Positions 28,717 to 61,420 of a stretch of DNA of 64,000 bases are shown one piece after another. Within the stretch, counting starts at the first letter, position 1, and each line of letters begins with the position of its first letter. Location of the stretch: IMG/VR virus record IMGVR_UViG_3300029362_000002. One strand, written 5' to 3'. The stretch comes from a virus. Made by a program: the position numbers and the translations under genes. Below the pieces are notes generated by a model that ran no database searches, was not told where the DNA came from, and worked only from the letters and a program-made list of their open reading frames with translations.

Positions 28717-28717
28717 T

Positions 28718-31700: not shown

Positions 31701-34003
31701 CAGATGCTCAGAATAAGCAGTACAAAGAAATGACCGGCTGGTATGTGAAAGGACAGGAAGGAAGTGAGCTGACTAAGAGCTTGCAGCTGGGAGCAAACAC
31801 ACTGAACTCTGCATATGCAGAAAAAATTCAGAGTAATAGACAGAGCCTTGCAGAAAATGCACAGTATTCTTTGGAATCAGCACAGAATATGCTGGCAAGC
31901 GGAGATACTTTCTCTGCGTCAAATGCACTGATGTATGGCTTCAATGAGCTTGGCAATGGAAAAACACTTGGATTCACTACAGACGCTACACAAAATGCTT
32001 TGAGTACGATGTATGAAAGCATGAAACCAGACGTAACGCAGATGCAGGGATTGATTGATGATTATAGGGAAGCCGGAAAAGCGGTTCCACAGAGCTTGAT
32101 GGATTCTTTCAACGAAGCCGTTGAAGTCGGAGCGGCGGCAGGTGATACTGCGGCTACATGGCAGAATTACGCTAATCAGATTTGGCAGAATGGAAGCGAT
32201 GAATTAAAGGCATCACTTACAGACCCAAGCAATCCTATGTACGAGACTATCCGTTCTCAGCTTCCACCGGAATTGACAGAGGCAATAGATCGAGCGGCGG
32301 CAGAGACAACTACAGAGGACGTAACCCTGGAAGGCTTAAAGGCATCGGTTGACGGTGACGTAGATATAGACAAGGACAAATGGGTGTCTGCTTTAAATGA
32401 AAAGTTGGGAGATTTGGCAACAACAGAGGAAGTTACCGCAGAGGGTGCGACTATCAAAGTTGAAGCTGGGGACTGCTTATGGGATATTGGCAATGCCCTT
32501 GGTGTTGACTGGCGGACTATAGCAGAAGAGAACGGCATCGAAAGCCCATACGTTATTCATCCTGGAGATGAAATCAAGATTTCCATGGACACATTAACTG
32601 CCGAAGTAGATGGAGATGCAGCACAATCAGCAATCGATCAGGCAATGTCTGCGTTGACAACTGAGGGCGCTGAATTTTCTGTTACTGCAGAAGGCGTTCA
32701 AGTGGATTTGTCCGATGTTCAAGTAGATTCAGAATCAGCAGCCGCTCAGATTGAAGCGGCACTTGGCATGGAATCCGGAACACTTGCGGCGAATGGAATC
32801 GAGGTGCAGACAGGAGCAACGGTAACTGTGCCATCAGAATTGGTGCAGGTAGATGCATCTGGTCTGCAGGGAGCAACTCAGGAGGCGGTAAATCAGACAG
32901 ATACAGAACCAGTCGAAAAGGATACGTCCGCAAATGTTAATGTTACGGATACAACAACAAATGCTGAAGATGTACAGGGAAAAGTGGAAGAGGATCTGCA
33001 AGGAGCTGTCGGGGATGCTTCGGTCGAAGGAAGTGCGAATGTTACATTCTCTGATGTAACGGCTGATACGTCTGGAGTCTTGGAACAGGTAACAGCAGAA
33101 CTTGAAAACGCAGTAAGCAACGTGCCAGCCAATGGTCATGCCGAAATTACCCTGGATCAGACCAATAATTCATCAGAAATCTATTCTCTTGCGACAGGAG
33201 ATGTAGAGTCTGCATTTTCGCAAACAATTCCAACAGATGGTCATGCAGATGTTACGCTTGATCAGACAAACAATGCAGACGCCATTTATTCAGAATGCGC
33301 CGGACAGGTACAGAGTACATTTTCTCAGGGATTCTCAGCCTCAGCAGATGTCGCAGTTACACTGAACTGGCATATTACGAATCCATCAGCCAGCATATCC
33401 ACATCAAGTAGCGGATCATCTGTATCAGCTACTATTGCAGGTCATGCAAATGGAGGCGAAGTTGGATTAAGCGGACCAGAATTGTCATGGGTGGGCGAGG
33501 AAGGCTTAGAGTATATCATTCCTACAGTGCCAGGACGCAGACAAAGAGGAATCAGTTTGTGGATGCAGGCAGGAAAAACTCTCGGCATGTTTGGCCCTGA
33601 CGGAGAAATCTCAGCTCATGCCAATGGTGGAGCGGTAGGTGCCGGAAGCAGTATTATTCCGGAGGATTCCATACAGTTGGCACAGGTTCCAGAAAAGTCA
33701 GACAACACAGTCTGGAGCATTATGGGACAAGCGGTGTCCAACGAGAGCAGTAAGGATGCGTCAGAAGGAGACGGAACGACCTTCACTGTGAATAATGCGC
33801 AGCAGAATGATGGTGGAGGAAAAGTTGAAGTCAATGTAAATATGAATCCGGTCATTAAGATTGAAGGAAGTAACATGGATGAAGAAAAGATTTTCCAGGT
33901 TCTGCAGAATAGAATCCGAGAGATGGCAGATGATCTTGGCGATGAGATTGCAGAACGCATGGGTAAAATCTTCAACAATATGCCGGCAGTACAGGAGGCG
34001 TAA
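28718..34003 (+). CDS. Tape measure protein with tandem N-terminal repeats and an embedded LysM domain
   Basis: ~1760 aa. Probable TTG start at 28718, 8 nt after GGAGG (the track start GTG 28709 overlaps the RBS). Contains TMP core (TTKFTATQSAEAFNYMAMAGW), hydrophobic segments, and LysM at ~32449-32590. Confidence 0.85.
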   Translation: MAETVRIEIPVSVKDNTSAGVQSATRNMSNFERSMKRTEQQLNRLDRAHHVRVDADDQASGTINRLSSATESLDGTAADVEISANDTASQIVDQVEDQVSALDGSAADVDVGANDTATQVVNAASDAVENFDGQSGDAEIGADDGATPVIRAAEDAVENFDGSSGDAEIGADDGATPVVRAAQDAVENFDGMSGDAEIGADDQASPVIDSARDKAESWAGSVFNATIGIIDNVTAPIQSVLRAVSNPVVQGASLLGVSLGVADTVNTFKDFESMMSQVKAISGATGQDFEDLTAKAKEMGATTKFTATQSAEAFNYMAMAGWQPTQMIDGISGVMNLAAASGEDLGTTSDIVTDAITAFGLQAGDAGHFADVLAQASANANTNVGMLGESFKYVAPVAGAMNYTVEDTSLALGLMANASVKGSMAGTSLKTAIANMAAPTSSMAAAMEKYGISITDSEGNMKSLKGVMDNIRSSLGGLAEDEQTAAASTIFGKEAMAGMLAIVNASEDDYNKLSTAIYNSKDAAQDMADTMMDNLAGSMTLMQSAVEGVQNSFGKRLSPYLKTAVEGITAEMPAVEEALNNIMDVVDGKATSLKRSIKSMTGSQEWKDADFFGKVDIAWDKIIAEPFMSWAGSEGKSMLSQGIGKLFSSASAILPGGEKAGLTSWLSAGLIGVGASKLISGGKNVASALTPIGSAIKNIASAASEADTVGGFFTSLTGMTSKAGMIGLGAAAIVAAIAGIAVAVDNYNSKVLNDNLEEHFGKIKLSAKEAEEIASGILNQKYLTNVELALNEVKNADSLREAAQKALESNDVLEFKSRVGITLTPEEREDYTSNIKTFVDSKIEELQSRTFAAHIHVQTYIGGTKEGDTLAKNIEDWARADNLELTNLSNDLQTAVEKALTDGIIDVDEEQAISALQEKMNNITARWKESEAQAKWDWINQEYGNLNAADLESGSFTELLEAMRGQRQSAKESVQADVEQWYSELNSMESAGRITDAQNKQYKEMTGWYVKGQEGSELTKSLQLGANTLNSAYAEKIQSNRQSLAENAQYSLESAQNMLASGDTFSASNALMYGFNELGNGKTLGFTTDATQNALSTMYESMKPDVTQMQGLIDDYREAGKAVPQSLMDSFNEAVEVGAAAGDTAATWQNYANQIWQNGSDELKASLTDPSNPMYETIRSQLPPELTEAIDRAAAETTTEDVTLEGLKASVDGDVDIDKDKWVSALNEKLGDLATTEEVTAEGATIKVEAGDCLWDIGNALGVDWRTIAEENGIESPYVIHPGDEIKISMDTLTAEVDGDAAQSAIDQAMSALTTEGAEFSVTAEGVQVDLSDVQVDSESAAAQIEAALGMESGTLAANGIEVQTGATVTVPSELVQVDASGLQGATQEAVNQTDTEPVEKDTSANVNVTDTTTNAEDVQGKVEEDLQGAVGDASVEGSANVTFSDVTADTSGVLEQVTAELENAVSNVPANGHAEITLDQTNNSSEIYSLATGDVESAFSQTIPTDGHADVTLDQTNNADAIYSECAGQVQSTFSQGFSASADVAVTLNWHITNPSASISTSSSGSSVSATIAGHANGGEVGLSGPELSWVGEEGLEYIIPTVPGRRQRGISLWMQAGKTLGMFGPDGEISAHANGGAVGAGSSIIPEDSIQLAQVPEKSDNTVWSIMGQAVSNESSKDASEGDGTTFTVNNAQQNDGGGKVEVNVNMNPVIKIEGSNMDEEKIFQVLQNRIREMADDLGDEIAERMGKIFNNMPAVQEA
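28850..29368 (+). repeat. Six tandem ~87-bp (29-aa) coding repeats in the TMP N-terminus
   Basis: Units such as FDGQSGDAEIGADDGATPVIRAAEDAVEN, FDGSSGDAEIGADDGATPVVRAAQDAVEN and LDGSAADVDVGANDTATQVVNAASDAVEN. Confidence 0.8.
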
Positions 34004-40207: not shown

Positions 40208-41254
40208 ATGGCAAATTTTGATGATATGAAGCTGGCAGTCGAGGCACTGTCCGGAGGAAAGAACACAGTTTTACTGGATGATCGTGGGATGCCGTCCATC
40301 ATGGTTGCGTTTCCAAAATTCAAAATCTCAGATGTAATTGCCGGAGGAAGTGAGAACATCCATCCGGCATTTTCCGTAGGTGGTGCGGAAAAAGATGTTG
40401 TGTATGTCTCCAAATTCCAGAACATTGTAATGAATGACAGAGCATATTCACTTCCGTTTAAGGACCCGAAGACCGGCGTGAACTTCGACCAGTCCGTCAA
40501 CTACTGCAGAAACAAAGGAACTGGATGGGGCCTGATGCCGTATTCCTTATGGAGCGCTATCGCTCTGTGGTGTAGAAAGAACGGCACTATGCCAAGAGGT
40601 AACAATAACTACGGCAGCGATCACGGATACCCACACGAGAAAGGAACACCGACTTACTACGATAGTAATAAGATCGCTCGTGTAGCAACCGGTTCTGGTC
40701 CTGATACATGGAGCCACAACTGGATGCCGGACGGAATCTTCGATCTGAATGGAAATGTATGGGAGTGGTGCGCTGGCATGAGACTTGTTGATGGCGAAAT
40801 CCAGATTATTCCGTATGCGAACAGCATGATTTTGACAACCAGTATGGCGGCTGGCTCTACAGAATGGAAAGCAATCGCAGCTGACGGTTCGCTGGTGGCT
40901 CCTGGCACTGCTGGTACTTTGAAATGGGATGTTGTTTCTGGAAAGATTCAGCTTACCAAAGGAACTATCACGCCGAAAGACACAGGAAACTGGCTGCCAT
41001 ATAACAATATGACACTTGGCGAAGGACTTACAGCAGCTCCGGAGTTGGCAAAAGCTCTCCTCCTGTATCCGGATGAGCCAAACGGAGATTACGGTGGAGA
41101 TTACCATGGAGTAAATACTTCCGGAGAGCGTTTGCCGCGCTGCGGGGGCAGCTGGAACTACACTTCCCGTGCTGGCGTGTTCAACGTGCACCTGGTCAGC
41201 CCTCGGACTAGCGCCGACGGCTACCTCGGTTTCCGCTCCGCTTTTGTAAACTGA
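40208..41254 (+). CDS. DGR variable protein 1 (FGE-sulfatase/C-type-lectin fold, putative receptor-binding tail protein)
   Basis: DLNGNVWEWCAGMR and C-terminal CGGSWNYTSRAGVFNVHLVSPRTSADGYLGFRSA. The last 113 nt are VR1. Located after the fibre genes. Confidence 0.85.
   Translation: MANFDDMKLAVEALSGGKNTVLLDDRGMPSIMVAFPKFKISDVIAGGSENIHPAFSVGGAEKDVVYVSKFQNIVMNDRAYSLPFKDPKTGVNFDQSVNYCRNKGTGWGLMPYSLWSAIALWCRKNGTMPRGNNNYGSDHGYPHEKGTPTYYDSNKIARVATGSGPDTWSHNWMPDGIFDLNGNVWEWCAGMRLVDGEIQIIPYANSMILTTSMAAGSTEWKAIAADGSLVAPGTAGTLKWDVVSGKIQLTKGTITPKDTGNWLPYNNMTLGEGLTAAPELAKALLLYPDEPNGDYGGDYHGVNTSGERLPRCGGSWNYTSRAGVFNVHLVSPRTSADGYLGFRSAFVN
41132..41244 (+). repeat. DGR variable region VR1
   Basis: 113-nt match to TR with 14 differences. 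Of these, 13 are at TR adenines and 1 is T->G at 41139 near the 5' edge. Confidence 0.9.
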
Positions 41255-41270
41255 GGACTGTAAACTGATT

Positions 41271-41288
41271 GCCGCCTGGGAAGGCGGC
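41271..41288 (+). promoter_or_regulatory. Hairpin downstream of VR1 (DGR target-recognition-type cruciform)
   Basis: gccgcct-ggga-aggcggc: 7-bp GC-rich stem, 4-nt loop, 17 nt after the stop codon. Confidence 0.65.
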
Positions 41289-41312
41289 GTTTGTGGTGAA
41301 AGGAGAAAGAAT

Positions 41313-41744
41313 GTGGCAGAACAGAGATCCGACAATATGACAGCAGAGATGGAAGAGGAAGGACTAACGATATTACAGAAAATTGAAGATATGGAAGTGT
41401 ACGCCCTCCCTCTCATCGAAAGATGGTCCATTGCACACCAGAAATTATTAGGTGACGATATAGCTCATTGTATGAACAGAATGTCGCAGCTGGCGTCGGC
41501 ATTAACGGTTGCATACTACAAGAAAACTTCCATCAGCGAACTGGATGAAATGAACAAAGCACTCCAGTCTCACATCAGAGTAGCCTATCGCCTGGGATAT
41601 TTGAAAGGAAAATCTTCCAGGAGTGAATGGGAAGGCCGTTCTGCAGAGATCGGAAGAATGATTGGAAAATATAAAGAATGGGTATACGGCGATCAAAAAT
41701 CGTCACAACAGAATAAAAGTGCAAAATCAAGGTACAGCCGGTAA
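41313..41744 (+). CDS. avd: DGR accessory variability determinant (Avd-like)
   Basis: 143-aa helical, basic protein between target and TR. GTG start 7 nt after AGGAG (ATG 41337 is an alternative). Confidence 0.65.
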   Translation: MAEQRSDNMTAEMEEEGLTILQKIEDMEVYALPLIERWSIAHQKLLGDDIAHCMNRMSQLASALTVAYYKKTSISELDEMNKALQSHIRVAYRLGYLKGKSSRSEWEGRSAEIGRMIGKYKEWVYGDQKSSQQNKSAKSRYSR

Positions 41745-41780
41745 TGATCCGGTTGTGCCGCCGGGAATAGGCTATTTCGT

Positions 41781-41893
41781 TTGCCGATCTGCGGGGGCAA
41801 CTGGAACAACACTTCCAATGCTGGCGTGTTCAACGTGAACCTGAACAACCCTCGGACTAACGCCAACGGCAACATCGGTTTCCGCTCCGCTTT
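41781..41893 (+). repeat. DGR template repeat (TR); transcribed with the 227-nt TR-RT spacer as the template RNA
   Basis: Non-coding copy of VR1/VR2. In the VR frame it holds 9 AAC + 1 AAT codons (ICGGNWNNTSNAGVFNVNLNNPRTNANGNIGFRSA). Confidence 0.9.
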
Positions 41894-42120
41894 ACTCTCA
41901 TATGCCAGAACCGGTCAGTTCAAGGACTGCCGGCAGTGCGAGAGATTTAAAGGAGTCTATTTCCGCTCCGACCGTGTGGAAGGAGAAAAATGGTTCTACT
42001 CGTGCGTGGGTAGAGCCGTCCCTGTGGAGACACACAAAGCAGGAGACACCTATGGAGGCCGCAAGTAGCGAGAGTGAAAGCTGCCACACATAGTCAAATA
42101 CAAAGGAGCGATAACGCAAC

Positions 42121-43341
42121 ATGAAGATTAAGAATGTTTTTGATCTTATCTTCTCCATGGAAAATCTGTATGGAGCCTTAGAAGATGCTTCAGATCAAAG
42201 GAGATATAACAAGGATGTAATGCTCTTCAATTTCAACGCCTGGGATAATTTGAAAGAGATTAGAGATTCTGTTTACGATGGGACGTATACCATAGACAAA
42301 TATTATATTTTCTATGTGTATGAACCGAAGAAAAGGATGATAATGTCCATCAAATTTAAACACAGAGTTGTTCAATGGGCGATATACAGAGTTATCAATC
42401 CTATGCTGATTAAGGGATATATCAAGGATTCTTACGGATGTATCCCGGAAAGAGGACCACTGACCGCTATGTTTCGGCTTAAATACTGGTTGGAACAGGT
42501 GAACCGTAAGGATGAGCAGTGGTATTACTTAAAACTAGATATAAGCAAATATTTTTACCGGATATCGCATCGGATACTAAAGAAAATACTTGCAAAGAAA
42601 ATTAAGGACCAGCGGTTGCTGAAATTGCTGGAATCAATTATAGATTGCAAACATACACCGTTTGGATTGCCGCCAGGACGTTCACCAGGGGAAGTACCTT
42701 TGGAAGAACGTCTTTTTGATGTCGGAATGCCTATCGGAAATCTGCTATCACAGGTGTTTGCGAATGTGTATTTGGACGCACTGGATCAGTTCTGCAAGAG
42801 GGAATTGCAAATTCATTGTTATGTCCGATACATGGATGATGTGATTATTCTCAGTAGTAGCAAGGCACAGCTCCAGGAATGGAAAGTCAGAATTGCTTCT
42901 TTTCTGGAAACGGAGTTGGAACTGCAGCTAAACAATAAAACTTGTATCCGGCCAATAAATCAAGGCATTGAATTTGTCGGATACAGGGTATGGCCTGACA
43001 AAGTGGTACTCAGGAAGAAAACAACACTTCACATCAAGAGAGTTTTGAAGGCAAAGAAAGAAGCGTACAGAGTGAAGGAAATTTCTTTTAAGCAGGCAAC
43101 AGACACACTGCAGAGTTACTTGGGAATGATGAAATATTGTGACTGCGATGCATTGAAGGAGAAGATTCTGGATGATTTTGTCCTGACGCACGCAGACATG
43201 AAACAAATTTACGAGGAAGGAGGGGATCGGGATGAGAACTACTATCGCAGAGGTGATGGATGGTCAGTCGAAGATTATCCAGTTACAGACGAAACTTATA
43301 GACCGGCTGGCACTTGCATTACTGCAGCATGGAACTATTGA
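42121..43341 (+). CDS. DGR reverse transcriptase
   Basis: RT motifs EPKKR, SYGCIPERG, LKLDISKYF, MPIGNLLSQVFANVYL (DGR-type SQ), YVRYMDDVII (YMDD), GIEFVGYRV. Confidence 0.9.
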   Translation: MKIKNVFDLIFSMENLYGALEDASDQRRYNKDVMLFNFNAWDNLKEIRDSVYDGTYTIDKYYIFYVYEPKKRMIMSIKFKHRVVQWAIYRVINPMLIKGYIKDSYGCIPERGPLTAMFRLKYWLEQVNRKDEQWYYLKLDISKYFYRISHRILKKILAKKIKDQRLLKLLESIIDCKHTPFGLPPGRSPGEVPLEERLFDVGMPIGNLLSQVFANVYLDALDQFCKRELQIHCYVRYMDDVIILSSSKAQLQEWKVRIASFLETELELQLNNKTCIRPINQGIEFVGYRVWPDKVVLRKKTTLHIKRVLKAKKEAYRVKEISFKQATDTLQSYLGMMKYCDCDALKEKILDDFVLTHADMKQIYEEGGDRDENYYRRGDGWSVEDYPVTDETYRPAGTCITAAWNY

Positions 43342-44072: not shown

Positions 44073-44393
44073 ATGAAAAAAATTAAAAAAGTGGTTGCGG
44101 CCGTAAAGAAGGTCGGAACCTTAAACCTGGTACTGATTCTGGTCGGTGCCTTTTTTGTTTGGTTTAACTGGCAGATGATCCTGGTTTTCCGGGAATATGG
44201 AAGTATGCCGGAAACCTATGCCTGCGCTGTTGTGGCAGCAACAATAGGTGAGTGTGGAATCTGCGGCTGGATCCGGACGAATAAAGATAAGCGGCTGGAT
44301 CGGAAATGGCAGAAAGAAGACGAAAAAGAAAGCCAAGAACAATATGTCCCCGACATAAATGTCGGTAACAAAAACGAGGAGGAAAACTTATGA
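44073..44393 (+). CDS. Small membrane protein (holin-like or holin accessory)
   Basis: Two TM segments (LNLVLILVGAFFVWF, ACAVVAATIGECGICGWI) and a charged C-terminus. Confidence 0.5.
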   Translation: MKKIKKVVAAVKKVGTLNLVLILVGAFFVWFNWQMILVFREYGSMPETYACAVVAATIGECGICGWIRTNKDKRLDRKWQKEDEKESQEQYVPDINVGNKNEEENL

Positions 44394-44701
44394 GCTTAGA
44401 GATTTTTTTACTGTTACTGCTGATCGTATCTATTTTTACAGGACTCTTCACAGAGGGAATCAAGAAATTGATGGATGAGGTAAACAAGAAATACCTCTCC
44501 AATTTCTTAGCCGGTTTCGTTGCAGTCGTACTGTCAGTTCTGGTAGATGCGGGATATATCATTCTGACGGAGGCACAGATCAATGCAAAGATGGCTGTAT
44601 ATTTAATCGCCCTGGTGTTGTTATCCTGGCTGGCATCAATGGTGGGATACGACAAGGTGATCCAGGCTATTACGCAGTGCAAGAAGTACAAAGAGGAGTA
44701 G
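44390..44701 (+). CDS. Holin
   Basis: 103 aa with three hydrophobic segments and a charged C-terminal tail (QCKKYKEE), just upstream of the endolysin. Confidence 0.65.
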   Translation: MSLEIFLLLLLIVSIFTGLFTEGIKKLMDEVNKKYLSNFLAGFVAVVLSVLVDAGYIILTEAQINAKMAVYLIALVLLSWLASMVGYDKVIQAITQCKKYKEE

Positions 44702-44703
44702 AC

Positions 44704-44856
44704 ATGGGGAATGTAGCAAAAATCGTAGTGGGGGTGCTTGCCATAGGCGGCACCTTTTTCATTCTGTTAATCAGAGAATTTGGGAAATTTATTGACGAAG
44801 TTTCACCCTACAACTGGGGAGAAAGCGAGGTGCTGAAAGATGAGTATAAACGTTGA
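44704..44856 (+). CDS. 50-aa single-TM peptide overlapping the endolysin start (tentative)
   Basis: ATG follows AGAGGAG. MGNVAKIVVGVLAIGGTFFILLIREFGKFIDEV... Below the ORF-track cutoff. Confidence 0.4.
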   Translation: MGNVAKIVVGVLAIGGTFFILLIREFGKFIDEVSPYNWGESEVLKDEYKR

Positions 44857-46495
44857 GGCGGAGAAAAGAGCCTATAAGAAATTCAGACAGGCCGGCATGA
44901 CTGCAGCTGGGGCTTGCGGCCTGATCGGAAACCTGGAAGCGGAGAGTGATGGTTTCTACACAAACCGGGTTGAATACCTGTGCCTTAAACGGCTGAAAGA
45001 AAAGGGAAAAGTCTATACCCATGCCACCTATACTGCAGCGATCGACAGCGGAAAGATCTCCTGCGAGGAGTTCTTACATCCGCTTTCCGGAAAACAGTAC
45101 GGGTACGGATTGGCCCAGTGGACAAGCCCTGGCAGAAAATCTGGTCTTTGGAATTTTGCCAAGCAGAGAGGCGTGTCCATTGCGGACGAAGATATGCAGC
45201 TGGATTTCTTACTGAAGGAACTGAGAGAAAGCTACAGCCCGGTTTTGGCTATTCTCAAATCAGCAACAACAATCCGGCAGGCATCCGATGTTGTTTTAAA
45301 GAAGTTTGAAATTCCGGCCAACACAGGGGAAAGCGTATGCGAAAGTAGAGCGGCAAGAGGCCAGAAATTCTATAACGATTATGCAAAGGAGGAAAAAATT
45401 GTGAGCGTGAAAATTAGTAATTGTGGACATGATGAAAATGGACGTTATGCAGGAGGCCAGGCGGGCGATCAGACTGGTACAGAGTATCAGATCATCAACT
45501 GGTACAACAGACCTTGGCTCTGTGTTTTACGATTTGAGGACCAGGAAGTAGCGGCACTGATTGCAGAGATGGCAACACAGGCCGCAAACAATAATATGAT
45601 CGGCTATGACCAGGGAACTGCAGGGAATAGTAATGATCGCTATACCTTCTGGGAGCAGCTGGCCGCAAATGGTTATGATCCATCAAAAATCAAAAAGCCA
45701 TGCGAAACAGACTGCAGCCAGAGTACCGCAAGCATCGTGAAAGCAGTCGGATACCGTCTGAATAAGCCGAAGATGAAAGCAGTTAGCGTTTACTTGACTA
45801 CATATAACATGAGAAGCGCATTCAAGACAGCGGGAGCAAAGGTTCTCACCGATCAGAAATATCTGACAAGCGGTACATGCTTAAAGCCTGGAGATATCCT
45901 GCTGAATGACAATCATCATGTGGCTATCGCAGTGAGTGGAGATGCCAGTTCCAATGCAACTCCGGCAAAGAAGAATTATTTGGAAAAGGGAGATACCGGA
46001 TCAGAAGTAACCGCGATGCAGAAAATGCTTATCAAAGTTGGATATTCTTGCGGAGCCGCAGGAGCTGACGGAGATTTCGGCTCTGACACTGATTCAGCTC
46101 TTCGCAAATTTCAGAAAGACAATGGGCTGACGGTTGATGGACAGTATGGAACTAATTCCAAAGCCAAGCTGACCGCTCTGTACAACAAAAAGGTTGGAAC
46201 CACCACATCCAACAAGAAAGACGTAACGACAGTAGCCAAAGAGGTGATTGCCGGTAAATGGGGTAGCGGAGATGAGCGGAAAAAGAAGCTGACTGCGGCC
46301 GGCTATAATTATGACACTGTTCAGAAGAAGGTGAATGAGCTGCTGAAGACAAGAACAAAGAAATCCGTAGCTGAAGTTGCAAAGGAAGTCGTTTCCGGAA
46401 AATGGGGGAACGGAGCCGATCGGAAGAAAAAACTGGAAGCAGCCGGTTACAATTATGCCGAAGTCCAGAAAGAAGTAAACAAGCTACTGAAATAA
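44840..46495 (+). CDS. Multidomain endolysin
   Basis: N-terminal lysozyme-like domain (GACGLIGNLEAESDGF..YGLAQWT). Central Cys/His amidase-peptidase-like domain (CETDCSQST..NHHVAIAV). PG_binding_1-like repeat (GDTGSEVTAMQKML..DGDFGSDT). Two Cpl-7-like repeats (GKWGSGDERKKKLTAAGYNYDTVQKKVNELL). Confidence 0.8.
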   Translation: MSINVEAEKRAYKKFRQAGMTAAGACGLIGNLEAESDGFYTNRVEYLCLKRLKEKGKVYTHATYTAAIDSGKISCEEFLHPLSGKQYGYGLAQWTSPGRKSGLWNFAKQRGVSIADEDMQLDFLLKELRESYSPVLAILKSATTIRQASDVVLKKFEIPANTGESVCESRAARGQKFYNDYAKEEKIVSVKISNCGHDENGRYAGGQAGDQTGTEYQIINWYNRPWLCVLRFEDQEVAALIAEMATQAANNNMIGYDQGTAGNSNDRYTFWEQLAANGYDPSKIKKPCETDCSQSTASIVKAVGYRLNKPKMKAVSVYLTTYNMRSAFKTAGAKVLTDQKYLTSGTCLKPGDILLNDNHHVAIAVSGDASSNATPAKKNYLEKGDTGSEVTAMQKMLIKVGYSCGAAGADGDFGSDTDSALRKFQKDNGLTVDGQYGTNSKAKLTALYNKKVGTTTSNKKDVTTVAKEVIAGKWGSGDERKKKLTAAGYNYDTVQKKVNELLKTRTKKSVAEVAKEVVSGKWGNGADRKKKLEAAGYNYAEVQKEVNKLLK

Positions 46496-46556
46496 CAGCG
46501 GAGAAATGGTGCTTTTGAAGAGAGTCTGCACCTCTGAGAAAAATATATCACACACG

Positions 46557-46590
46557 CCCTGGTCCTTCGGGACTGGGGCATTTTTTATTG
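46557..46590 (+). terminator. Intrinsic terminator after the lysis cassette
   Basis: ccctggtcc-ttcg-ggactgggg, then cattttttatt. Confidence 0.65.
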
Positions 46591-46859
46591 CAAAATGCGG
46601 AACAAGTTAGAGGTAAAAATCAATATACAAAATAACTAAAATTTCAATGCTATTTTTGACGAAATGTGCCTGAGCAACGATAGAGATTTTTTCAATACCT
46701 AATATACCTAAAGGCAAAAATTCGGTATAGGGGCGTGTACGAGCGTATAGCCCTATATGCTTTTTTCGGGGAAATGCTTGTGGTTCCGGTAGATAATTTG
46801 TGAAAAATATGATATTCTTAAAGAGCTGCCGAACCTCCAGCAGAAAGGAGGTGAAATCA

Positions 46860-46952
46860 TTGGATAAAATAATCGCCATTATTCTTGTCCCTGTCGCAGT
46901 AAATGTAATTAGCTACTACATTTGCAAATGGCTGGACAGAAAAGACAAATAG
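46860..46952 (+). CDS. Fst-like type I toxin candidate (30 aa)
   Basis: TTG 7 nt after AAAGGAGGTG. MDKIIAIILVPVAVNVISYYICKWLDRKDK has a hydrophobic helix with a central Pro plus a charged tail. Confidence 0.55.
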   Translation: MDKIIAIILVPVAVNVISYYICKWLDRKDK

Positions 46953-46994
46953 GCAGCATAGCAGCCTAAGGCATAAGCCACCTACATAACGGAA

Positions 46995-47070
46995 TAGAAA
47001 ACCCCAGAGATCTGATCCATCTCCGGGGTTTTCGTTTTGCTCATTGGATAATCGCCATTACCCTTAGCTG
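46995..47070 (-). ncRNA. Candidate antitoxin sRNA (RNA II-like)
   Basis: Runs from the minus-strand promoter at 47076-47104 to the shared terminator. Contains UAAUGGCGAUUAUCCAAUGA, complementary to the toxin start region 46857-46881. Confidence 0.45.
46996..47037. terminator. Bidirectional intrinsic terminator shared by convergent toxin mRNA and antisense RNA
   Basis: A-tract, ccccagagat-ctgatcc-atctccgggg (10-bp stem with 1 mismatch), then ttttcgtttt. Confidence 0.6.
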
Positions 47071-47075
47071 TTTTC

Positions 47076-47104
47076 AGTATATGCGTATCAGACAAAAAAG
47101 TCAA
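47076..47104 (-). promoter_or_regulatory. Minus-strand sigma-A-type promoter for the antisense RNA
   Basis: On the minus strand: TTGACT, 17 nt, TATACT. Confidence 0.55.
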
Positions 47105-47368
47105 CCAGTAATTCCAATGTTCGTAAAATCGAGTTTTCCACATTATCCACACTCAGTTGAGGATAAGATACAAATGCGCAAAGCCTTATAAATAAAGGAA
47201 AATCTTCATATTATAATAAAAAACGTGTGACATTGTCCCATCAATGTCACGAAACCGTCACGTCACTATTACTCTATATCTATTTCTGTATCTAAATCTT
47301 TTTCTATCTTTTTCTTTTATTCTCACTATTAGTTATTGAATGTTGCAGTTGCGAAAATAATTTGCATA

Positions 47369-47430
47369 AATAGAGCAAAACTATTGACAAATACGCAAGT
47401 GCGAGTTATAATATATACATAATCAAACAA
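47369..47430 (+). repeat. 62-bp exact direct repeat, copy 1 (contains promoter P1)
   Basis: Identical to 53384-53445. Confidence 0.95.
47384..47412 (+). promoter_or_regulatory. Consensus promoter P1 with operator-like motifs
   Basis: TTGACA, 17 nt, TATAAT. GCAAGTGCGA in the spacer (47395-47404), GCAGTTGCGA exactly 50 bp upstream (47345-47354), and TCGCAAATGCGA palindrome at 47477-47488. Confidence 0.75.
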
Positions 47431-47521
47431 AACACAAGAACCAAACAGGTGGGTGTTATTTTTTTACCCAAATGGTTCGCAAATGCGAGATTGATTAAAT
47501 AATCTGAAAGGAGAACACCAG

Positions 47522-53921: not shown

Positions 53922-54251
53922 ATGGCATTATTAGAGGTTAAGACAAGTTACGCAACATATACAGATTGCACATTAAGAGTAGGACAGTATCAGATGGATG
54001 GCAGTATTGCAGTTGAAATCTTCAGTAGAAGAGAGGGGCCAGTTGCAAGGATTACCGTTTGTCTGTGCGATTCAGCATTAGCAGAAAATGAAGCGTATGT
54101 GGATACAAATAATTGCCCTTGGGTAGTGGATTTCTTGGAGGCGAAAGGGCTGGCAAAATCGACTGGAAGAACGAGACGTAGCGGATATTGTATTTATCCA
54201 TCAATGAAATTCAACAGAGAGAAAATGGCAGAGTTTGAGGGAGGGTACTGA
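53922..54251 (+). CDS. DUF4313-like protein
   Basis: AVEIFSRREGPVARITVCL...AYVDTNNCPWVVDFLEAKGLAKSTG...SGYCIYP matches the remembered DUF4313 pattern from Firmicutes mobile elements. Confidence 0.45.
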   Translation: MALLEVKTSYATYTDCTLRVGQYQMDGSIAVEIFSRREGPVARITVCLCDSALAENEAYVDTNNCPWVVDFLEAKGLAKSTGRTRRSGYCIYPSMKFNREKMAEFEGGY

Positions 54252-54252
54252 A

Positions 54253-55164
54253 ATGGAAAGATTATATTGCACAATCAACGAAGAACAGGCCAGAATCGCA
54301 CACGATATGATGTCTATGAGCGACTACAAGGTAGGCAGTAAGACAGAAGAATACAGAGGATATGTCGATAAAGCCTATGACTTGGCCGAGAAAGTTGCAG
54401 AAGCAAGGCCGAGGGAAACGGATAGAGTTGAAGCATTGGCAAAGAGATATTCAAAGAGAATGGCCGAGTACATGAACCGGGAGAGCAATATCGGTTGCAG
54501 ATGTCCTTCGGTTATGATTTCGGGTGCTGGCAATTTTCCAGTGAAGAAAAAAGAGAAACAAGTGCAGGCTTGGGAGAAGAACCATCAGTTTTATACTGAG
54601 ACGCAGAAAATCCTGGATAAGATCAAGGGGATTTTGAGAGGAAAGGATATCATCAAGTCCTCAGATGAGGACGCTATAGAACGTCTGGAAGAGAAGCTGG
54701 ATGCTTTAAAAGAAAACCAGGAAAGAATGAGAGCTGTCAATAAAGCCATCCGCTTGAAGAATACCAAAAAGGGAGATGAGGAGCTTAAAATCCTGGGGTA
54801 TTCCGATGAGCAGATCCAGGAACTGAGAACTCCGGATTTCATGGGAAGAGTTGGATTTCCAGCATACGCCCTGCAGAACAACAACGCAAATATCCATAGA
54901 GTAGAGGAAAGGGTGAAAAGCTTGAAAGCAGTCAAGGAAAAGGGAACAAAAGAAACGGAATTTGAGCTGTTTAAGGTTGTTGAGAATGTGGAAGCTATGA
55001 GGTTACAGATTATTTTTGATGAAAAGCCGGAGGCAGATGTTAGAGCCGTTTTGAAAAAGAACGGTTTTAAATGGGCACCATCCCAGGGGGCATGGCAGAG
55101 AATGTTGAATCCGGCCGGCAAATACGCATTGAACCGAGTGAAAGAAGAACTGGAGGCTGTATAA
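54253..55164 (+). CDS. DUF3560-like protein
   Basis: ATG at 54253 follows GGAGGG. C-terminal LKKNGFKWAPSQGAWQR resembles the F-K/R-W...W motif of DUF3560 proteins of plasmids/ICEs. Confidence 0.45.
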   Translation: MERLYCTINEEQARIAHDMMSMSDYKVGSKTEEYRGYVDKAYDLAEKVAEARPRETDRVEALAKRYSKRMAEYMNRESNIGCRCPSVMISGAGNFPVKKKEKQVQAWEKNHQFYTETQKILDKIKGILRGKDIIKSSDEDAIERLEEKLDALKENQERMRAVNKAIRLKNTKKGDEELKILGYSDEQIQELRTPDFMGRVGFPAYALQNNNANIHRVEERVKSLKAVKEKGTKETEFELFKVVENVEAMRLQIIFDEKPEADVRAVLKKNGFKWAPSQGAWQRMLNPAGKYALNRVKEELEAV

Positions 55165-56629: not shown

Positions 56630-57772
56630 ATGGCAAAAGCAAAGTTTATGAATGGTGAGTTTTCAGCAAAGTTTAAAGGAAAGAGAAGATTCGTTGCAGA
56701 GCAGATGGAAGCAATTAAGGATTATGCGGCAAGAGATGATATGCAGATCAATATTTGTCCGGTAATCCAGGAGAGACCTTCTGGAAAAAAGAATACTGAG
56801 GAGCAGATCACACCAACCCATTTCATCAGCGGAAACCTGGAACACGCAGTAGTGGCAATTTACGACAATGCCGGCATCCCGTCATTCATGCACAGATTCC
56901 GCAAGGTGACAAATAAGGAGCTGTTCGGTGGAAGCGATAAAACAAATGCAGCGTTTATCATTGGAGATGAAGAATACGATGAAATTTACATTTCTGTCTA
57001 TGAGAACTGCGAAATTAACGGAAAGCCTTATAGCCTGCCAATGCAGAAGCCATGGACAGGAATTACCAATGATGAGGCGGCGAGAGCTTGTTTTTCAAAG
57101 GGAGAGGGATGGCATCTTATGACAAGAGCTGAATGGGGATTACTTGCGAACCTCAGCTTGAAAAATGGTACTTTGCCACATGGCAACACGAACTATGGAA
57201 AGTACCATGCAAACCCGGAAGAACATGGAGAGTCAGCAGGAGAATCCGGAAAGACCAAAACCGGATCAGGACCGGCAACATGGACCCACGATCATACATT
57301 GGAAGGCGTTCACGATCTGTCCGGAAACGTATGGGAAATGGTAAGAGGCCTGAGAATAAAAGACGGACAGCTGGAGATGGTAAAGAATAACGATGCAGCA
57401 TTGGATATTGATCTTACCCTTGAAGGAGATAACTGGGAACCGGTAAGAGATGATTCCGGAAAGTCTATTAGAGTAAGCGTTTCCGATGGCGGTATCAAAT
57501 TCCTTGCTGAAAGTGATCACGAAGAGGGATACGATGGATGTAGATGGGAAGATGTTAATATTGATTGCGAGAGCGAAACACTGAAAGAGCTGGCTCTGTA
57601 TCCTGGAGAGCCGGAAGCCTACTGCTATATTGATAGCACTGAGGGAGAATATTTGCCGATCTGCGGGGGCAGCTGGTACAGCGCTTCCAGTGCTGGCGTG
57701 TTCCGCGTGCACCTGAGCAACCCTCGGACTAACGCCCGCTGGCTACCTCGGTTTCCGCTCCGCTTATTTTAG
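56630..57772 (+). CDS. DGR variable protein 2 (paralog of target 1), C-terminus frameshifted by a 1-nt insertion in VR2
   Basis: GIPSFMHRF, DLSGNVWEMVRGLR, ICGGSWYSASSAGVFRVHLSNPRTNAR then WLPRFPLRLF* instead of G-Y-L-G-F-R-S-A. Confidence 0.8.
   Translation: MAKAKFMNGEFSAKFKGKRRFVAEQMEAIKDYAARDDMQINICPVIQERPSGKKNTEEQITPTHFISGNLEHAVVAIYDNAGIPSFMHRFRKVTNKELFGGSDKTNAAFIIGDEEYDEIYISVYENCEINGKPYSLPMQKPWTGITNDEAARACFSKGEGWHLMTRAEWGLLANLSLKNGTLPHGNTNYGKYHANPEEHGESAGESGKTKTGSGPATWTHDHTLEGVHDLSGNVWEMVRGLRIKDGQLEMVKNNDAALDIDLTLEGDNWEPVRDDSGKSIRVSVSDGGIKFLAESDHEEGYDGCRWEDVNIDCESETLKELALYPGEPEAYCYIDSTEGEYLPICGGSWYSASSAGVFRVHLSNPRTNARWLPRFPLRLF
57653..57765 (+). repeat. DGR variable region VR2 (remote)
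   Basis: Matches TR with 13 substitutions, all at TR adenines, plus one inserted T at 57740. Confidence 0.9.
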
Positions 57773-57816: not shown

Positions 57817-57845
57817 GTTCATATATGAGAATGAGGAGAAAAGCC

Positions 57846-59201
57846 ATGGAAGAAAGAAGAGATATAGTTTATATCGGAATAGATCACATCCATACGCACC
57901 CGGAGAATCCAAGAAAGGATCTCGGAGATTTGACGGAGCTGGCAGAATCGATGAAAAAACAGGGGTGTTTACAGAATTTAACGGTTGTTCCGGTAGAAGA
58001 ACAGCCTGGAGAGTATTATGCGTTGATTGGGAACCGCCGGCATGGAGCATCAAAGTTAGCAGGCCTGGAAGAATTGCCATGCAGGATCGCTGAAGGATTA
58101 AGCCGAAAAGAACAGTTGTCAATCATGCTGGAAGAAAATATGCAGCGCAGCGATTTGACAATTTATGAGCAGGCCCAGGGATTTCAGCTTATGCTTGATT
58201 TGGGAGATACCGAGGAACAAATTGCTGAGAAAACTGGATTCAGCAAGACTACCATTCGCCGTAGGTTAAATATTGCGAAGCTAAACCAGGATGAACTTAA
58301 AAAGAAGGAGCAGGATGAAAATTTTCAGTTAACGCTGAAGGATTTATACGAACTGGAAAAAGTGAAAGATATTAAGACGAGGGATAAAATTCTCAGAGAA
58401 GCAACCAGTTCAAGAGACTTGGTGAGCAGAGCGCAAGCAGCTGCAGCAGAAGCTAAACGAAATGAAAATGCAAAAAAACTGAAAGAGATGTTGAAGAAGA
58501 AAGGCATTAAGGCTGCCCCGAAGTCAGCAGAAAATGAAATTTGGAGCGGAAAATGGAATACTATTAAGGAGTATGAGTTAGACAAAGACGTTCCGGAGCA
58601 GATCAAACTTCCAAAGACAGAAGAAGAAAAATTTTTCTTAGTATATTATCGTAGCTTGAGAATTATTACAAAAATTCCAAAAGGAAAGAAAGAACTTTCA
58701 CCTTGGGAAAAAGAGCAAAAGGAAAAGGATCAGGCAAAAAGGAAAATCAAAGCGATATTAAAAGAAAGCAGTGCCAGAAGAAAAGAATTTCTGGAGAATA
58801 TTATTTCGGGGAAAATCAGCCCGGTTAAAGATGAATCTGAAGTAAAAGAAAAGATATGGGAAGCTATGATGGCACTTGGCAGTTACATTTATGCAAGCAC
58901 AGTGCGAGATTTCTATTTGAAAAAGAGCTACTATGAATCTTCACCAGAAGAGAAAAAAGCAGCAGATGAGTCAGCGGGAAAACTTAGTTCCTTACATCAG
59001 ATGATGATTATTTTGCACAATTCAATGAAAATTTGCAACGAACCGTATGATTACAACTTGGTCTTTAATAAAAACAAAGGAGACGCACTCTTGAAAGGAT
59101 ATGAGGTGTTTGAGCCGTATGGTTGGTATTTTGAAGATGAAAAGGAACGTCAGGTGCTGGATGGAACATCTGAACTGTACAGAAAGGAGAAGAAAGAGTG
59201 A
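57846..59201 (+). CDS. ParB/Spo0J-like DNA-binding protein with long C-terminal extension
   Basis: ATG at 57846 follows GAGGAG. ParB N-domain (IDHIHTHPENPRK, LIGNRRHGASKLAG) and HTH (EEQIAEKTGFSKTTIRRRLNIAKL). Confidence 0.7.
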   Translation: MEERRDIVYIGIDHIHTHPENPRKDLGDLTELAESMKKQGCLQNLTVVPVEEQPGEYYALIGNRRHGASKLAGLEELPCRIAEGLSRKEQLSIMLEENMQRSDLTIYEQAQGFQLMLDLGDTEEQIAEKTGFSKTTIRRRLNIAKLNQDELKKKEQDENFQLTLKDLYELEKVKDIKTRDKILREATSSRDLVSRAQAAAAEAKRNENAKKLKEMLKKKGIKAAPKSAENEIWSGKWNTIKEYELDKDVPEQIKLPKTEEEKFFLVYYRSLRIITKIPKGKKELSPWEKEQKEKDQAKRKIKAILKESSARRKEFLENIISGKISPVKDESEVKEKIWEAMMALGSYIYASTVRDFYLKKSYYESSPEEKKAADESAGKLSSLHQMMIILHNSMKICNEPYDYNLVFNKNKGDALLKGYEVFEPYGWYFEDEKERQVLDGTSELYRKEKKE

Positions 59202-61383: not shown

Positions 61384-61420
61384 ACAGGAAAAGAAAAGCC
61401 GCAACCACAAGGGTTACGGC
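61384..61420 (-). terminator. Terminator of the integrase gene
   Basis: On the minus strand: gccgtaaccc-ttgt-ggttgcggc followed by ttttcttttcc. The int stop codon lies in the stem. Confidence 0.55.

What the first reader, a model, noticed from the sequence alone, without database searches (positions are those of the whole stretch)
46840..47104. Fst/par-like type I toxin-antitoxin candidate after the lysis cassette
A 30-codon ORF (46860-46952, TTG 7 nt after AAAGGAGGTG) encodes MDKIIAIILVPVAVNVISYYICKWLDRKDK. It has one hydrophobic helix with a central Pro and a charged tail, like Fst-family toxins. It ends at a bidirectional terminator (A-tract, 10-bp stem, T-tract, 46996-47037). On the opposite strand a near-consensus promoter (TTGACT-17-TATACT, 47076-47104) would drive a ~75-nt convergent RNA ending at the same terminator. 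That RNA contains the reverse complement of 47041-47060. This segment is a direct repeat of the toxin start region 46857-46881, matching 11 + 9 nt around a 5-nt bulge and covering the TTG start and codons 2-7. Convergent RNAs, a shared terminator and 5' direct repeats that give complementarity at the initiation region are the architecture of the Enterococcus pAD1 par locus.
Basis: partly seen in the sequence, partly recalled or inferred. Interest (0 to 1): 0.65.

Follow-up and report, generated by a model that had tools for sequence, protein, structure and literature searches.

The report
Phage-borne Fst/par-like toxin-antitoxin locus
Just after the lysis genes of this gut-bacterial phage lies a small killer-peptide gene held in check by an antisense RNA; it is an unannotated but ordinary member of the known Fst/par family, which helps mobile DNA stay in its host.

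Summary
Window 46790-47104 has every sequence feature of a par(pAD1)-type type I toxin-antitoxin locus:
- a promoter with an extended -10;
- a roughly 215-nt toxin mRNA with its Shine-Dalgarno sequence buried in a 5' hairpin and its 5' end paired just after the stop codon;
- a 30-codon ORF, a shared bidirectional terminator and a convergent near-consensus promoter for a roughly 75-nt antisense RNA;
- a split direct repeat that makes this RNA complementary to the TTG start and codons 2-9 (predicted duplex -33.6 kcal/mol, z = -6.5).

The same layout recurs in 111 distinct loci from at least 120 species genomes (mostly gut Clostridia), 25 viral contigs and small plasmids. The repeats co-vary within each locus. 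The antisense promoter is present in 82% of loci. The mRNA helices show compensatory changes.

The RNA matches Rfam SpF66, which maps to the intergenic region of the validated Streptococcus pneumoniae Fst-A/B locus. The peptide profile matches the SpF66-encoded peptide (hhalign 97.6%). Curated Fst protein models miss the clade.

Expression and toxicity are untested. Verdict: a new member of a known kind, of moderate-to-low interest, and an annotation gap.

The parts
46790..46818 (+). Toxin (RNA I-like) promoter: TAGATA, 17-nt spacer, TATTCT, with an extended -10 TG at 46810-46811. Predicted transcription start is about 46824.
   Evidence: Read from the sequence and scanned. An equivalent promoter is found in homologues (score at least 9.5 in 78%; TG extension in 76%). 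Predicted 5' UTR is a median of 37 nt, 35 nt in the window.
46825..46830 (+). 5' end segment GCUGCC. It pairs with GGCAGC at 46952-46957, a long-range helix equivalent to the par 5' upstream helix. It can alternatively pair locally with CAGC at 46838-46841.
   Evidence: The pairing is in the MFE fold of the window mRNA. Covariation at alignment columns 22-30 with 170-175, for example UA:41/CG:34 and CG:50/UA:18.
46833..46852 (+). 5' stem-loop: anti-SD ACCUCC (46833-38) pairs with GGAGGU (46847-52) and hides the ribosome-binding site.
   Evidence: MFE fold. The SD pairs with upstream UTR bases in 62% of 88 homologous mRNAs, against 15% when the UTR is shuffled. CCUCC/GGAGG changes to CCCC/GGGG between subgroups.
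46860..46952 (+). Toxin ORF, 30 aa: MDKIIAIILVPVAVNVISYYICKWLDRKDK. TTG start; SD at 46844-46853.
   Evidence: 95 distinct homologous peptides with Y19, I21, C22, W24, L25 and D26 invariant. 5 synonymous and 0 non-synonymous differences between L151 and L152 in codons 2-8. hhalign 97.6% to the SpF66-encoded peptide.
46857..46886 (+). Toxin-side copy of the split direct repeat (equivalent to DRa/DRb). It covers the TTG start and codons 2-9.
   Evidence: The predicted duplex with the antisense RNA spans 46856-46888.
46930..46966 (+). Helix between the W-L-D codons (GGCUG, 46930-34) and the 3' UTR (CAGCC, 46962-66).
   Evidence: Covariation at columns 144-149 with 180-185: GC:58/AU:28 and CG:53/UA:12/UG:23. 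The same helix appears in the Rfam SpF66 model alignment.
46997..47039 (.). Shared bidirectional intrinsic terminator: A-tract, 10-bp G+C stem, 7-nt loop CUGAUCC (contains a YUNR, CUGA), T-tract.
   Evidence: Inverted repeat I2. 13 pairs all show changes on both sides across 89 sequences. Found in 111 of 114 loci.
47041..47065 (+). Antitoxin-side copy of the direct repeat. Its reverse complement lies in the 5' part of the antisense RNA.
   Evidence: Own-locus repeat score averages 15.8 against 6.9 between loci.
46992..47069 (-). Predicted antitoxin sRNA (RNA II-like), about 75-78 nt, from about 47069 to the terminator.
   Evidence: Promoter position. Predicted length across loci has a median of 74 nt, IQR 70.5-76. 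Fold. No conserved minus-strand ORF. Not shown experimentally.
47076..47104 (-). Antitoxin promoter TTGACT, 17-nt spacer, TATACT.
   Evidence: 10 of 12. A minus-strand promoter with at least 10 of 12 matches is present at this place in 82% of 111 loci, against 3.6% on the + strand and 0.9% in shuffles.

Best explanation
Window 46790-47104 is a par(pAD1)/Fst-type type I toxin-antitoxin module carried by a temperate phage of a gut Firmicute.

Inferred mechanism:
1. A promoter with an extended -10 makes a roughly 215-nt toxin mRNA.
2. A 5' hairpin in this mRNA hides the Shine-Dalgarno sequence, and the mRNA's extreme 5' end pairs just after the stop codon.
3. A stronger convergent promoter makes a roughly 75-nt antisense RNA that ends at the same bidirectional terminator.
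4. The two RNAs are complementary at the terminator stem-loop and, through a split direct repeat, across the TTG start and codons 2-9. The complex therefore blocks translation of the 30-aa membrane peptide.
5. If the element is lost, or host transcription stops, the less stable antisense RNA decays and the peptide is made. It inserts into the membrane and stops growth.

The most likely role is stabilising the prophage or mobile element. Abortive-infection or exclusion activity is an alternative use of the same mechanism.

Shown here: the sequence elements, their conservation and their co-variation. Inferred: transcription, relative RNA stability, toxicity and biological role.
For: - Elements are at the stated coordinates and are non-random.
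- Predicted duplex is -33.6 kcal/mol over 46856-46888, z = -6.5 against shuffles. The MFE fold shows a hidden SD and a 5'-3' helix.
- In 111 distinct loci the repeat pair matches within a locus but not between loci (15.8 against 6.9; 91% exceed the 95th percentile of cross-locus scores). It spans the start codon in 92 of 101 loci.
- The antisense promoter is conserved in 82% of loci, and the predicted RNA is 74 nt.
- mRNA helices are 92% paired, against 79% in shuffles and 38-56% when slid. 404 cells changed on both sides, against 133 expected.
- The peptide is under purifying selection.
- Rfam SpF66 hits: 34 bits, E = 7e-6 for the window; 65 bits, above the gathering score, for the Aerococcus plasmid homologue. 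SpF66 lies in the fcsR-adcA region, where Fozo 2010 placed Fst-A/B and showed toxicity and a 65-75-nt antisense RNA for Fst-B (PMC3395615, PMC2887945).
- hhalign to the SpF66-encoded peptide gives 97.6%.
- The module is kept at the same place in related phages and occurs on small plasmids.
- Type I TAs stabilise C. difficile prophages (PMC7699646).
Against:
- Toxicity is untested.
- The window peptide and all 95 relatives fail the curated Fst models (PF13955, NF033608) even at E <= 10, and there is no PDB hit to Fst or PepA1.
- The window peptide has PxxxN rather than PxxxG(C).
- A U-turn motif in the terminator loop is not conserved (39 of 111 loci).
- The near-identical phage contig L152 carries an antitoxin repeat that matches its own toxin 5' end poorly, so tight repeat matching may not be strictly required.
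Confidence: 0.82

Rival explanations
1. The module has the same type I TA mechanism, but its selected role is phage defence (abortive infection or superinfection exclusion) for the lysogen rather than retention of the prophage. Shut-off of host transcription by an incoming phage would deplete the antisense RNA and release the toxin.
For: It sits at the usual 'moron' position after the lysis cassette, with its own promoter and terminators. It is kept there in related phages even where the endolysin differs. From general knowledge: hok/sok has been reported to exclude T4.
Against: The same module is frequent on small plasmids and on short contigs (25 of the 80 genome contigs listed are under 10 kb), which fits stabilisation. 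No defence genes were seen next to it. PADLOC was not run.
Confidence: 0.25
2. The conserved element is only a structured non-coding RNA pair, as its Rfam relative SpF66 is filed ('sRNA'). On this reading the 30-codon ORF is not translated.
For: Rfam files SpF66 as an sRNA gene. RNA structure alone constrains part of the coding sequence: the KWLD codons form a helix.
Against: - The SD and start codon are conserved at a fixed distance.
- 95 distinct peptides keep six invariant residues and a hydrophobic-helix-plus-charged-tail design.
- Codons 2-8 differ only synonymously between L151 and L152.
- The N-terminal codons are not in conserved helices, yet they keep hydrophobic character.
- Fozo 2010 tested pneumococcal Fst-B, which lies in the same intergenic region as SpF66, and found it toxic (PMC2887945).
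Confidence: 0.05
3. The peptide is an accessory lysis protein (a holin, antiholin or spanin-like small membrane protein) belonging to the lysis cassette, and the antisense RNA only times its expression.
For: It lies directly after the holin-like ORFs and the endolysin (44073-46495) and has a single transmembrane helix.
Against: - It is separated from the endolysin by a strong terminator (46556-46579) and about 260 nt, and it has its own promoter.
- In L151 and L153, two minus-strand genes lie between the lysin and the module.
- Homologues sit on plasmids with no lysis genes.
Confidence: 0.04

Closest known systems
par locus of Enterococcus faecalis plasmid pAD1 (Fst toxin, RNA I, RNA II)
   Same: Shared features (PMC7472228 compared):
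- convergent promoters and a shared bidirectional terminator;
- two-part direct repeats that make the sRNA complementary to the initiation region;
- a 5' stem-loop hiding the SD and a helix hiding the 5' end;
- a toxin mRNA of 210-230 nt;
- a peptide of about 30 aa with a single transmembrane helix and a charged tail.

hhalign places Pro11 on Fst Pro11 and Trp24 on the Val that replaces Trp in Fst.
   Different: Peptide similarity is not significant (hhalign probability 12.7%) and there is no hit to the curated Fst models. The host element is a phage rather than a conjugative plasmid. The clade normally has Ser, not Pro, in the motif. The start codon is TTG rather than GUG. The predicted sRNA is about 75 nt, whereas the review gives about 40 nt for RNA II.
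Streptococcus pneumoniae Fst-A/Fst-B locus (sRNA F66/srn502, Rfam RF02442 SpF66)
   Same: This is the best RNA-family match, full length 1-239, and includes the KWLD-codon helix. The encoded peptide ends in ...CKWLDG and matches the clade profile at 97.6%. The pneumococcal antisense RNA of 65-75 nt (PMC2887945) agrees with the 74 nt predicted here.
   Different: The window scores 34 bits, below the gathering score of 42. Only the Aerococcus plasmid homologue passes, at 65 bits. The pneumococcal locus is chromosomal, between fcsR and adcA, and has a DxxxG motif.
Staphylococcus aureus SprA1/SprA1AS (PepA1)
   Same: A 30-aa peptide with identical Pro-to-Trp spacing. hhalign aligns it in register (probability 44%, pairwise E = 2e-4). 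The transcripts are convergent.
   Different: From general knowledge: SprA1AS acts through a non-overlapping 5' domain in trans. PepA1 passes NF033608 at 58 bits, whereas the window peptide does not.
Clostridioides difficile prophage type I TAs (e.g. CD0977.1-RCd11 in phiCD630-1)
   Same: A prophage-borne small membrane toxin with an antisense RNA in Clostridia. These systems have been shown to help maintain the prophage (PMC7699646).
   Different: A different toxin family. Two homologues match NF047374 only weakly (21 bits against a cut-off of 60) and the window peptide has no hit. Differences in layout were not compared here.
hok/sok of plasmid R1
   Same: Long-range pairing of the 5' end with the 3' region keeps the toxin mRNA inactive (from general knowledge). 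This is analogous to the 46825-30 / 46952-57 helix.
   Different: The peptide is unrelated. There is no leader ORF (mok) and no evidence here of 3' processing. The hosts are Gram-negative.

Membership tests
par/Fst-like type I TA (features as listed in Weaver 2020, PMC7472228) | Convergent promoters for the toxin mRNA and the antitoxin sRNA | tested here: met
   The minus-strand promoter scores 10 of 12 and is conserved in 82% of 111 loci. The plus-strand extended -10 promoter is conserved. These are sequence predictions only.
par/Fst-like type I TA (features as listed in Weaver 2020, PMC7472228) | Shared bidirectional intrinsic terminator | tested here: met
   Inverted repeat 46997-47033 with flanking A and T tracts. 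13 pairs with compensatory changes.
par/Fst-like type I TA (features as listed in Weaver 2020, PMC7472228) | Pair of direct repeats transcribed in both directions, giving complementarity that covers the toxin's translation initiation site | tested here: met
   for the window. Co-variation within loci. The repeat spans the start codon in 92 of 101 loci. Duplex of -33.6 kcal/mol.
par/Fst-like type I TA (features as listed in Weaver 2020, PMC7472228) | Intramolecular 5' stem-loop hiding the SD | tested here: met
   ACCUCC/GGAGGU pair in the MFE fold. 62% against 15% in the shuffled control across 88 mRNAs. This is a predicted structure.
par/Fst-like type I TA (features as listed in Weaver 2020, PMC7472228) | Upstream helix hiding the extreme 5' end of the toxin mRNA | tested here: met
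   46825-30 pairs with 46952-57. Covariation at columns 22-30 with 170-175.
Fst/Ldr toxin superfamily | Conserved Trp between a hydrophobic transmembrane helix and a charged C-terminus | tested here: met
   W24 is invariant in 95 peptides and is followed by L-D-[RG]-charged.
Fst/Ldr toxin superfamily | P/D/S/T-xxx-G(C) motif in the transmembrane helix (present in most members) | tested here: inconclusive
   The window has P11-xxx-N15. In the clade, position 11 is S in 90, A in 4 and P in 1; position 15 is S in 57, G in 24 and N in 8. The first residue fits the motif; the Gly/Cys is present in only about a quarter.
Fst/Ldr toxin superfamily | Match to the curated profiles Pfam PF13955 Fst_toxin or NCBIfam NF033608 | tested here: not met
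   No hit at E <= 10 for the window peptide or any of the 95 relatives. Controls: Fst scores 34.7 bits and PepA1 58.3 bits, both passing NF033608. The SpF66-encoded (pneumococcal Fst-type) peptide also falls below the cut-off (18.3 bits against 26). The models are therefore narrower than the family as defined in the literature.
Fst/Ldr toxin superfamily | Peptide toxic when over-produced; antisense RNA expressed and protective | not testable with these tools
   This needs experiments.
Rfam RF02442 SpF66_sRNA | Covariance-model score at or above the gathering score (42 bits) | tested here: not met
   The window scores 34.0 bits, E = 7e-6, full-length match. Homologues score 32-39 bits. Only L004 (Aerococcus plasmid) passes, at 65.1 bits.
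C. difficile type I toxins (NCBIfam NF047374) | Profile score at or above 60 bits | tested here: not met
   No hit for the window peptide. 21 and 17 bits for two homologues.

The most novel reading that the evidence does not exclude
The 'YYICKWLD' peptides and their RNAs form a large subfamily of Fst/par-like modules that no protein model covers and no record examined annotates. It is one of the commonest addiction or exclusion modules on phages and small plasmids of human-gut Lachnospiraceae.

Its variable 5' 'specificity' segment (promoter, UTR, first 9 codons and the matching antitoxin repeat) may be exchanged by recombination between related phages, as in the hybrid L152. That would create mismatched toxin-antitoxin pairs that could mediate competition between related elements.
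Probability: 0.3. Interest if true: 0.5.

Novelty: new member of a known kind. Interest (0 to 1): 0.35.

Why it matters
The locus is a textbook-style type I toxin-antitoxin module that gene callers and curated protein models miss entirely. No feature was annotated under the match in any of the public plasmid or phage records examined. Only three homologous ORFs were found, all unnamed, among 5.8 billion protein clusters.

Recognising the clade would add an RNA-regulated killer module to the annotation of many gut Clostridia phages and plasmids. It would also explain a block of highly conserved 'intergenic' DNA. The 111 natural variants show co-varying toxin and antitoxin repeats, so they form a ready data set for studying antisense specificity.

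It does not change what is known about how such systems work.

Tried and rejected
The 50-aa upstream-extended ORF gave only 3 unnamed hits.
- The GTG at 46800 is not the real start. It lies upstream of the predicted transcription start, and homologues start at the SD-proximal codon.
- Literature searches for 'SpF66' and 'CKWLD' returned only malaria-vaccine and unrelated papers.
- Megablast of 20 kb against GenBank phages found no match.
- PDB sequence searches found nothing.
- RNAalifold on the MAFFT alignment recovered only the terminator and one coding-region helix. The other helices were tested with a structure I specified.
- The local 5' hairpin could not be counted column-wise because the subgroups align inconsistently there. 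It was tested sequence by sequence instead.
- The U-turn (YUNR) motif is present in the window loop but is found in only 39 of 111 loops, so it is not a conserved feature.
- A minus-strand ORF (46982-47152, 56 aa) overlaps the sRNA region but is not conserved. The longest open stretch has a median of 40 codons and reaches 50 or more in 28% of loci.
- Supplementary tables of Fozo 2010 are not held, so I could not check whether their C. bolteae 'Fst-like' peptide belongs to this clade.

Full report
**What is in the window**

Bases 46500-47500 show the following, in order.
- The endolysin gene ends at 46495. Pfam finds ELLD, CW_7, Phage_lysozyme2 and PG_binding_1 domains.
- A strong terminator follows at 46556-46579.
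- After about 200 nt with no conserved ORF, the candidate locus begins.

The 30-codon ORF (46860-46952, TTG start) encodes MDKIIAIILVPVAVNVISYYICKWLDRKDK. AAAGGAGGTG lies at 46844-46853, 6 nt before the TTG rather than the 7 nt reported.

The repeat finder reports three relevant features:
- the inverted repeat 46997-47011 / 47019-47033 (15-nt arms, 93% complementary);
- the direct repeat 46857-67 = 47041-51 (11 of 11);
- the direct repeat 46869-86 ~ 47048-65 (16 of 18).

Each exact repeat block occurs only at these two places in 64 kb. Chance expects 0.08 and 0.00 occurrences. The promoter scan lists TTGACT-17-TATACT on the minus strand at 47104-47076.

**Predicted RNAs**

- Toxin mRNA: a plus-strand promoter (TAGATA-17-TATTCT, with a TG extension at 46810-11) would start transcription near 46824, giving an RNA of about 215 nt.
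- Antitoxin RNA: the minus-strand promoter would start near 47069, giving an RNA of about 75-78 nt.

The MFE fold of the toxin RNA has two notable features. It pairs ACCUCC (46833-38) with the SD GGAGGU (46847-52). It also pairs the 5' end GCUGCC (46825-30) with GGCAGC (46952-57), which overlaps the stop codon.

The 5' part of the antisense RNA forms a duplex of -33.6 kcal/mol with 46856-46888. This covers the start codon and codons 2-9, with a 5-nt bulge. The duplex is 6.5 sd stronger than shuffled controls.

**Relatives**

blastn against plasmids found unannotated matches on plasmids of Waltera, Clostridium perfringens, Butyricicoccus and Aerococcus (most of them small; the C. perfringens plasmid is 225 kb). 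blastn against GenBank phages found one faecal phage contig. By eye, all five fetched loci have the same layout.

A degenerate pattern for the YYICKWLD codons hit 25 IMG/VR viral contigs. The genomes are mostly Lachnospiraceae and other gut Clostridia. 25 of the 80 genome contigs listed are shorter than 10 kb.

These hits gave 114 distinct complete loci, 111 of them with a terminator, and 95 distinct peptides. The peptide consensus is MxxxxSFLxSVxASVVxYYICKWLD[RG]xx, with Y19, I21, C22, W24, L25 and D26 invariant.

The window peptide is a divergent member. It is the only one of the 95 with Pro at position 11, which is Ser in 90. Close relatives found separately share this Pro (P0001, P0002).

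**Comparative tests of the architecture**

1. Repeats. The region around the start codon and the region just beyond the terminator match within a locus (mean local score 15.8). They do not match between loci (mean 6.9). 91% of loci exceed the 95th percentile of cross-locus scores. The match spans the start codon in 92 of 101 loci. It usually carries 1-7 extra bases in the toxin copy, starting 3-10 nt into the ORF. The repeats therefore evolve together, as expected if base-pairing between the two RNAs is under selection.

2. Antisense promoter. A minus-strand promoter with at least 10 of 12 matches lies beyond the repeat in 82% of loci. The figure is 3.6% on the plus strand and 0.9% in shuffles. 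It predicts an RNA with a median length of 74 nt and an IQR of 70.5-76.

3. Toxin promoter. A plus-strand promoter, with a TG extension in 76% of loci, predicts a 5' UTR with a median of 37 nt.

4. mRNA helices. On an alignment of 89 toxin mRNAs (A2), I tested a structure made of four helices: the 5'-end/post-stop helix, a coding-region helix, the KWLD-codon/3'-UTR helix and the terminator.
   - The structure is 92% paired, against 79% in shuffles and 38-56% when slid.
   - 404 cells changed on both sides, against 133 expected.
   - The covariation score is 0.445 against 0.210, reached by 0 of 500 shuffles.

5. SD occlusion. The SD is paired with upstream UTR bases in 62% of mRNAs, against 15% when the UTR is shuffled.

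6. No minus-strand ORF. No minus-strand ORF is conserved across the sRNA region.

**Related phages**

The exact peptide P0002 (90% identical to the window's) lies on contigs with the same holin-like genes and the same downstream genes.
- In L152 the endolysin is 99.8% identical to the window's.
- In L151 and L153 the endolysin is of a different type, and two minus-strand genes lie between it and the module. The module and the block that follows it are nonetheless kept.
- L151, L153 and L154 encode the same N-terminus as L152 with 5 synonymous and 0 non-synonymous differences. Their own downstream repeat has changed to match.
- L152 is a hybrid. From about codon 10 through the antitoxin promoter it is identical to the window. 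Its promoter, UTR and first nine codons come from another allele, so its antitoxin repeat fits the window's toxin better than its own.

**Family assignment**

Protein evidence:
- Pfam and NCBIfam give no Fst hit for the window peptide or any of the 95 relatives.
- PDB searches give nothing.
- Controls: Fst(pAD1) and PepA1, both recalled from memory, pass NF033608 at 34.7 and 58.3 bits. That confirms they are Fst-family sequences.
- The SpF66-encoded (pneumococcal Fst-type) peptide is below the cut-off (18.3 bits against 26), although Fst is its top hit.

RNA evidence:
- The window's toxin RNA is a full-length match to Rfam RF02442 SpF66 (34 bits, E = 7e-6, gathering score 42).
- Homologues score 32-39 bits. 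The Aerococcus plasmid copy scores 65 bits, above the gathering score.
- F66 maps to TIGR4 2086087-2086325, between SP2168 and SP2169 (PMC3395615). This is the fcsR-adcA interval where Fozo et al. placed Fst-A and Fst-B. For Fst-B they showed a 65-75-nt antisense RNA and toxicity in E. coli (PMC2887945).
- The adjacent sRNA is annotated as Fst family in PneumoBrowse2 (PMC12323649).

Link between the two:
- Translating the SpF66 consensus gives MSLILELVLTIIADVIAGIILYFVCKWLDG.
- hhalign of the clade profile against this peptide (with an assumed final K) gives 97.6% probability and E = 3.5e-12.
- Alignments to PepA1 (probability 44%) and Fst (probability 12.7%) are weak but in register. S/P11 falls on the Pro, and W24 falls on the Trp of PepA1 or on the Val that replaces Trp in Fst.

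Weaver's review defines the family by two sets of features (PMC7472228). One is a Trp between the transmembrane helix and the charged tail, with a P/D/S/T-xxx-G(C) motif in most members. The other is the conserved RNA architecture. The window meets all of these except the Gly/Cys of the motif: it has PxxxN, and the clade has SxxxS/G. The review also notes Fst-like loci in commensal Clostridia and on phages.

I therefore place the locus as a divergent member of the Fst/par family that lies outside the present curated protein models.

**Mechanism and role**

The inferred mechanism is as follows.
1. The toxin mRNA is made in a translationally closed form, with the SD hidden and the 5' end protected.
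2. The more strongly promoted antisense RNA binds at the complementary terminator hairpins and at the split repeat, covering the start codon.
3. When the element is lost or transcription stops, the antisense RNA decays first and the 30-aa peptide is made.

The frequency of the module on small plasmids and in prophages, together with the demonstrated role of type I TAs in keeping C. difficile prophages (PMC7699646), makes stabilisation the most likely role. Defence by abortive infection is a live alternative. None of the expression, stability or toxicity steps could be tested here.

**Context of the window**

The window looks like a temperate phage.
- RecT lies at 1168-2118.
- The structural genes include a 1764-aa ORF at 28709-34003, probably the tape-measure protein judging by its length and position; it was not scanned against any protein family.
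- Lysis genes lie at 44073-46495.
- The TA locus follows, and then a perfect consensus promoter at 47384-47412 heads a block of small plus-strand genes.
- A tyrosine integrase lies at 61414-62562 on the minus strand.

**Verdict**

The finding is real and correctly interpreted. It is a new, unannotated member of a known kind. The wider clade is an annotation gap rather than a new mechanism.

Noticed in passing
window 40208-43341 (and 56630-57772): A likely diversity-generating retroelement lies just upstream of the lysis genes. It has an FGE-sulfatase/C-type-lectin-like ORF (40208-41254, 22.5 bits, just under the cut-off), a bAvd-like ORF (41313-41744, 37.6 bits against 40) and a reverse transcriptase (42121-43341, RVT_1, 74.5 bits). 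A second FGE-sulfatase-like ORF lies at 56630-57772. Template and variable repeats were not searched for.
   Followed up: partly
L152 3930-4250 (ENA ERZ505335 contig), compared with window 46790-47104: This is a hybrid allele in a near-identical phage. From about codon 10 of the toxin through the antitoxin promoter it is identical to the window. The toxin promoter, 5' UTR and codons 1-9 come from another allele. Its antitoxin repeat therefore matches its own toxin start region poorly (about 9 of 11 and 9 of 14). This suggests recombination inside the module.
   Followed up: partly
window 47384-47412 (+): A perfect sigma-70 consensus (TTGACA-17-TATAAT) heads the block of small plus-strand genes that follows the TA locus. 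In related contigs the TA stays linked to this block even when the endolysin differs.
   Followed up: partly
window 47227-47250 and 47296-47315: A 9-bp perfect hairpin with a T-run on the minus strand (terminator-like) and a tandem 10-nt repeat (ATCTTTTTCT, two copies) lie between the antitoxin promoter and the consensus promoter. Their function is unknown.
   Followed up: no
L049, L090, L110: Two copies of the toxin motif lie on one contig, in tandem in L049 and L090 and inverted in L110. This recalls the tandem Fst-A/Fst-B arrangement in S. pneumoniae.
   Followed up: no
window 46930-46966 and alignment A2 columns 144-149 / 180-185: The W-L-D codons are also one strand of a conserved mRNA helix: GGCUGG/CCAGCC changes to GGUUAG/CUAACC. 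This dual constraint explains the near-invariant nucleotide sequence that made the clade findable by blastn.
   Followed up: yes
L002 1-53 (-), Clostridium perfringens plasmid p21-D-5b: A fragment of a THF riboswitch aptamer (37.2 bits, gathering score 36), cut off by the end of the fetched stretch. It is unrelated to the finding.
   Followed up: no
window 57825-59201 and 54235-55164: A ParB_N/HTH_ParB protein and a DUF3560-like protein lie in the gene block downstream of the TA. Their role (partition-like, nuclease or anti-restriction) was not examined.
   Followed up: no
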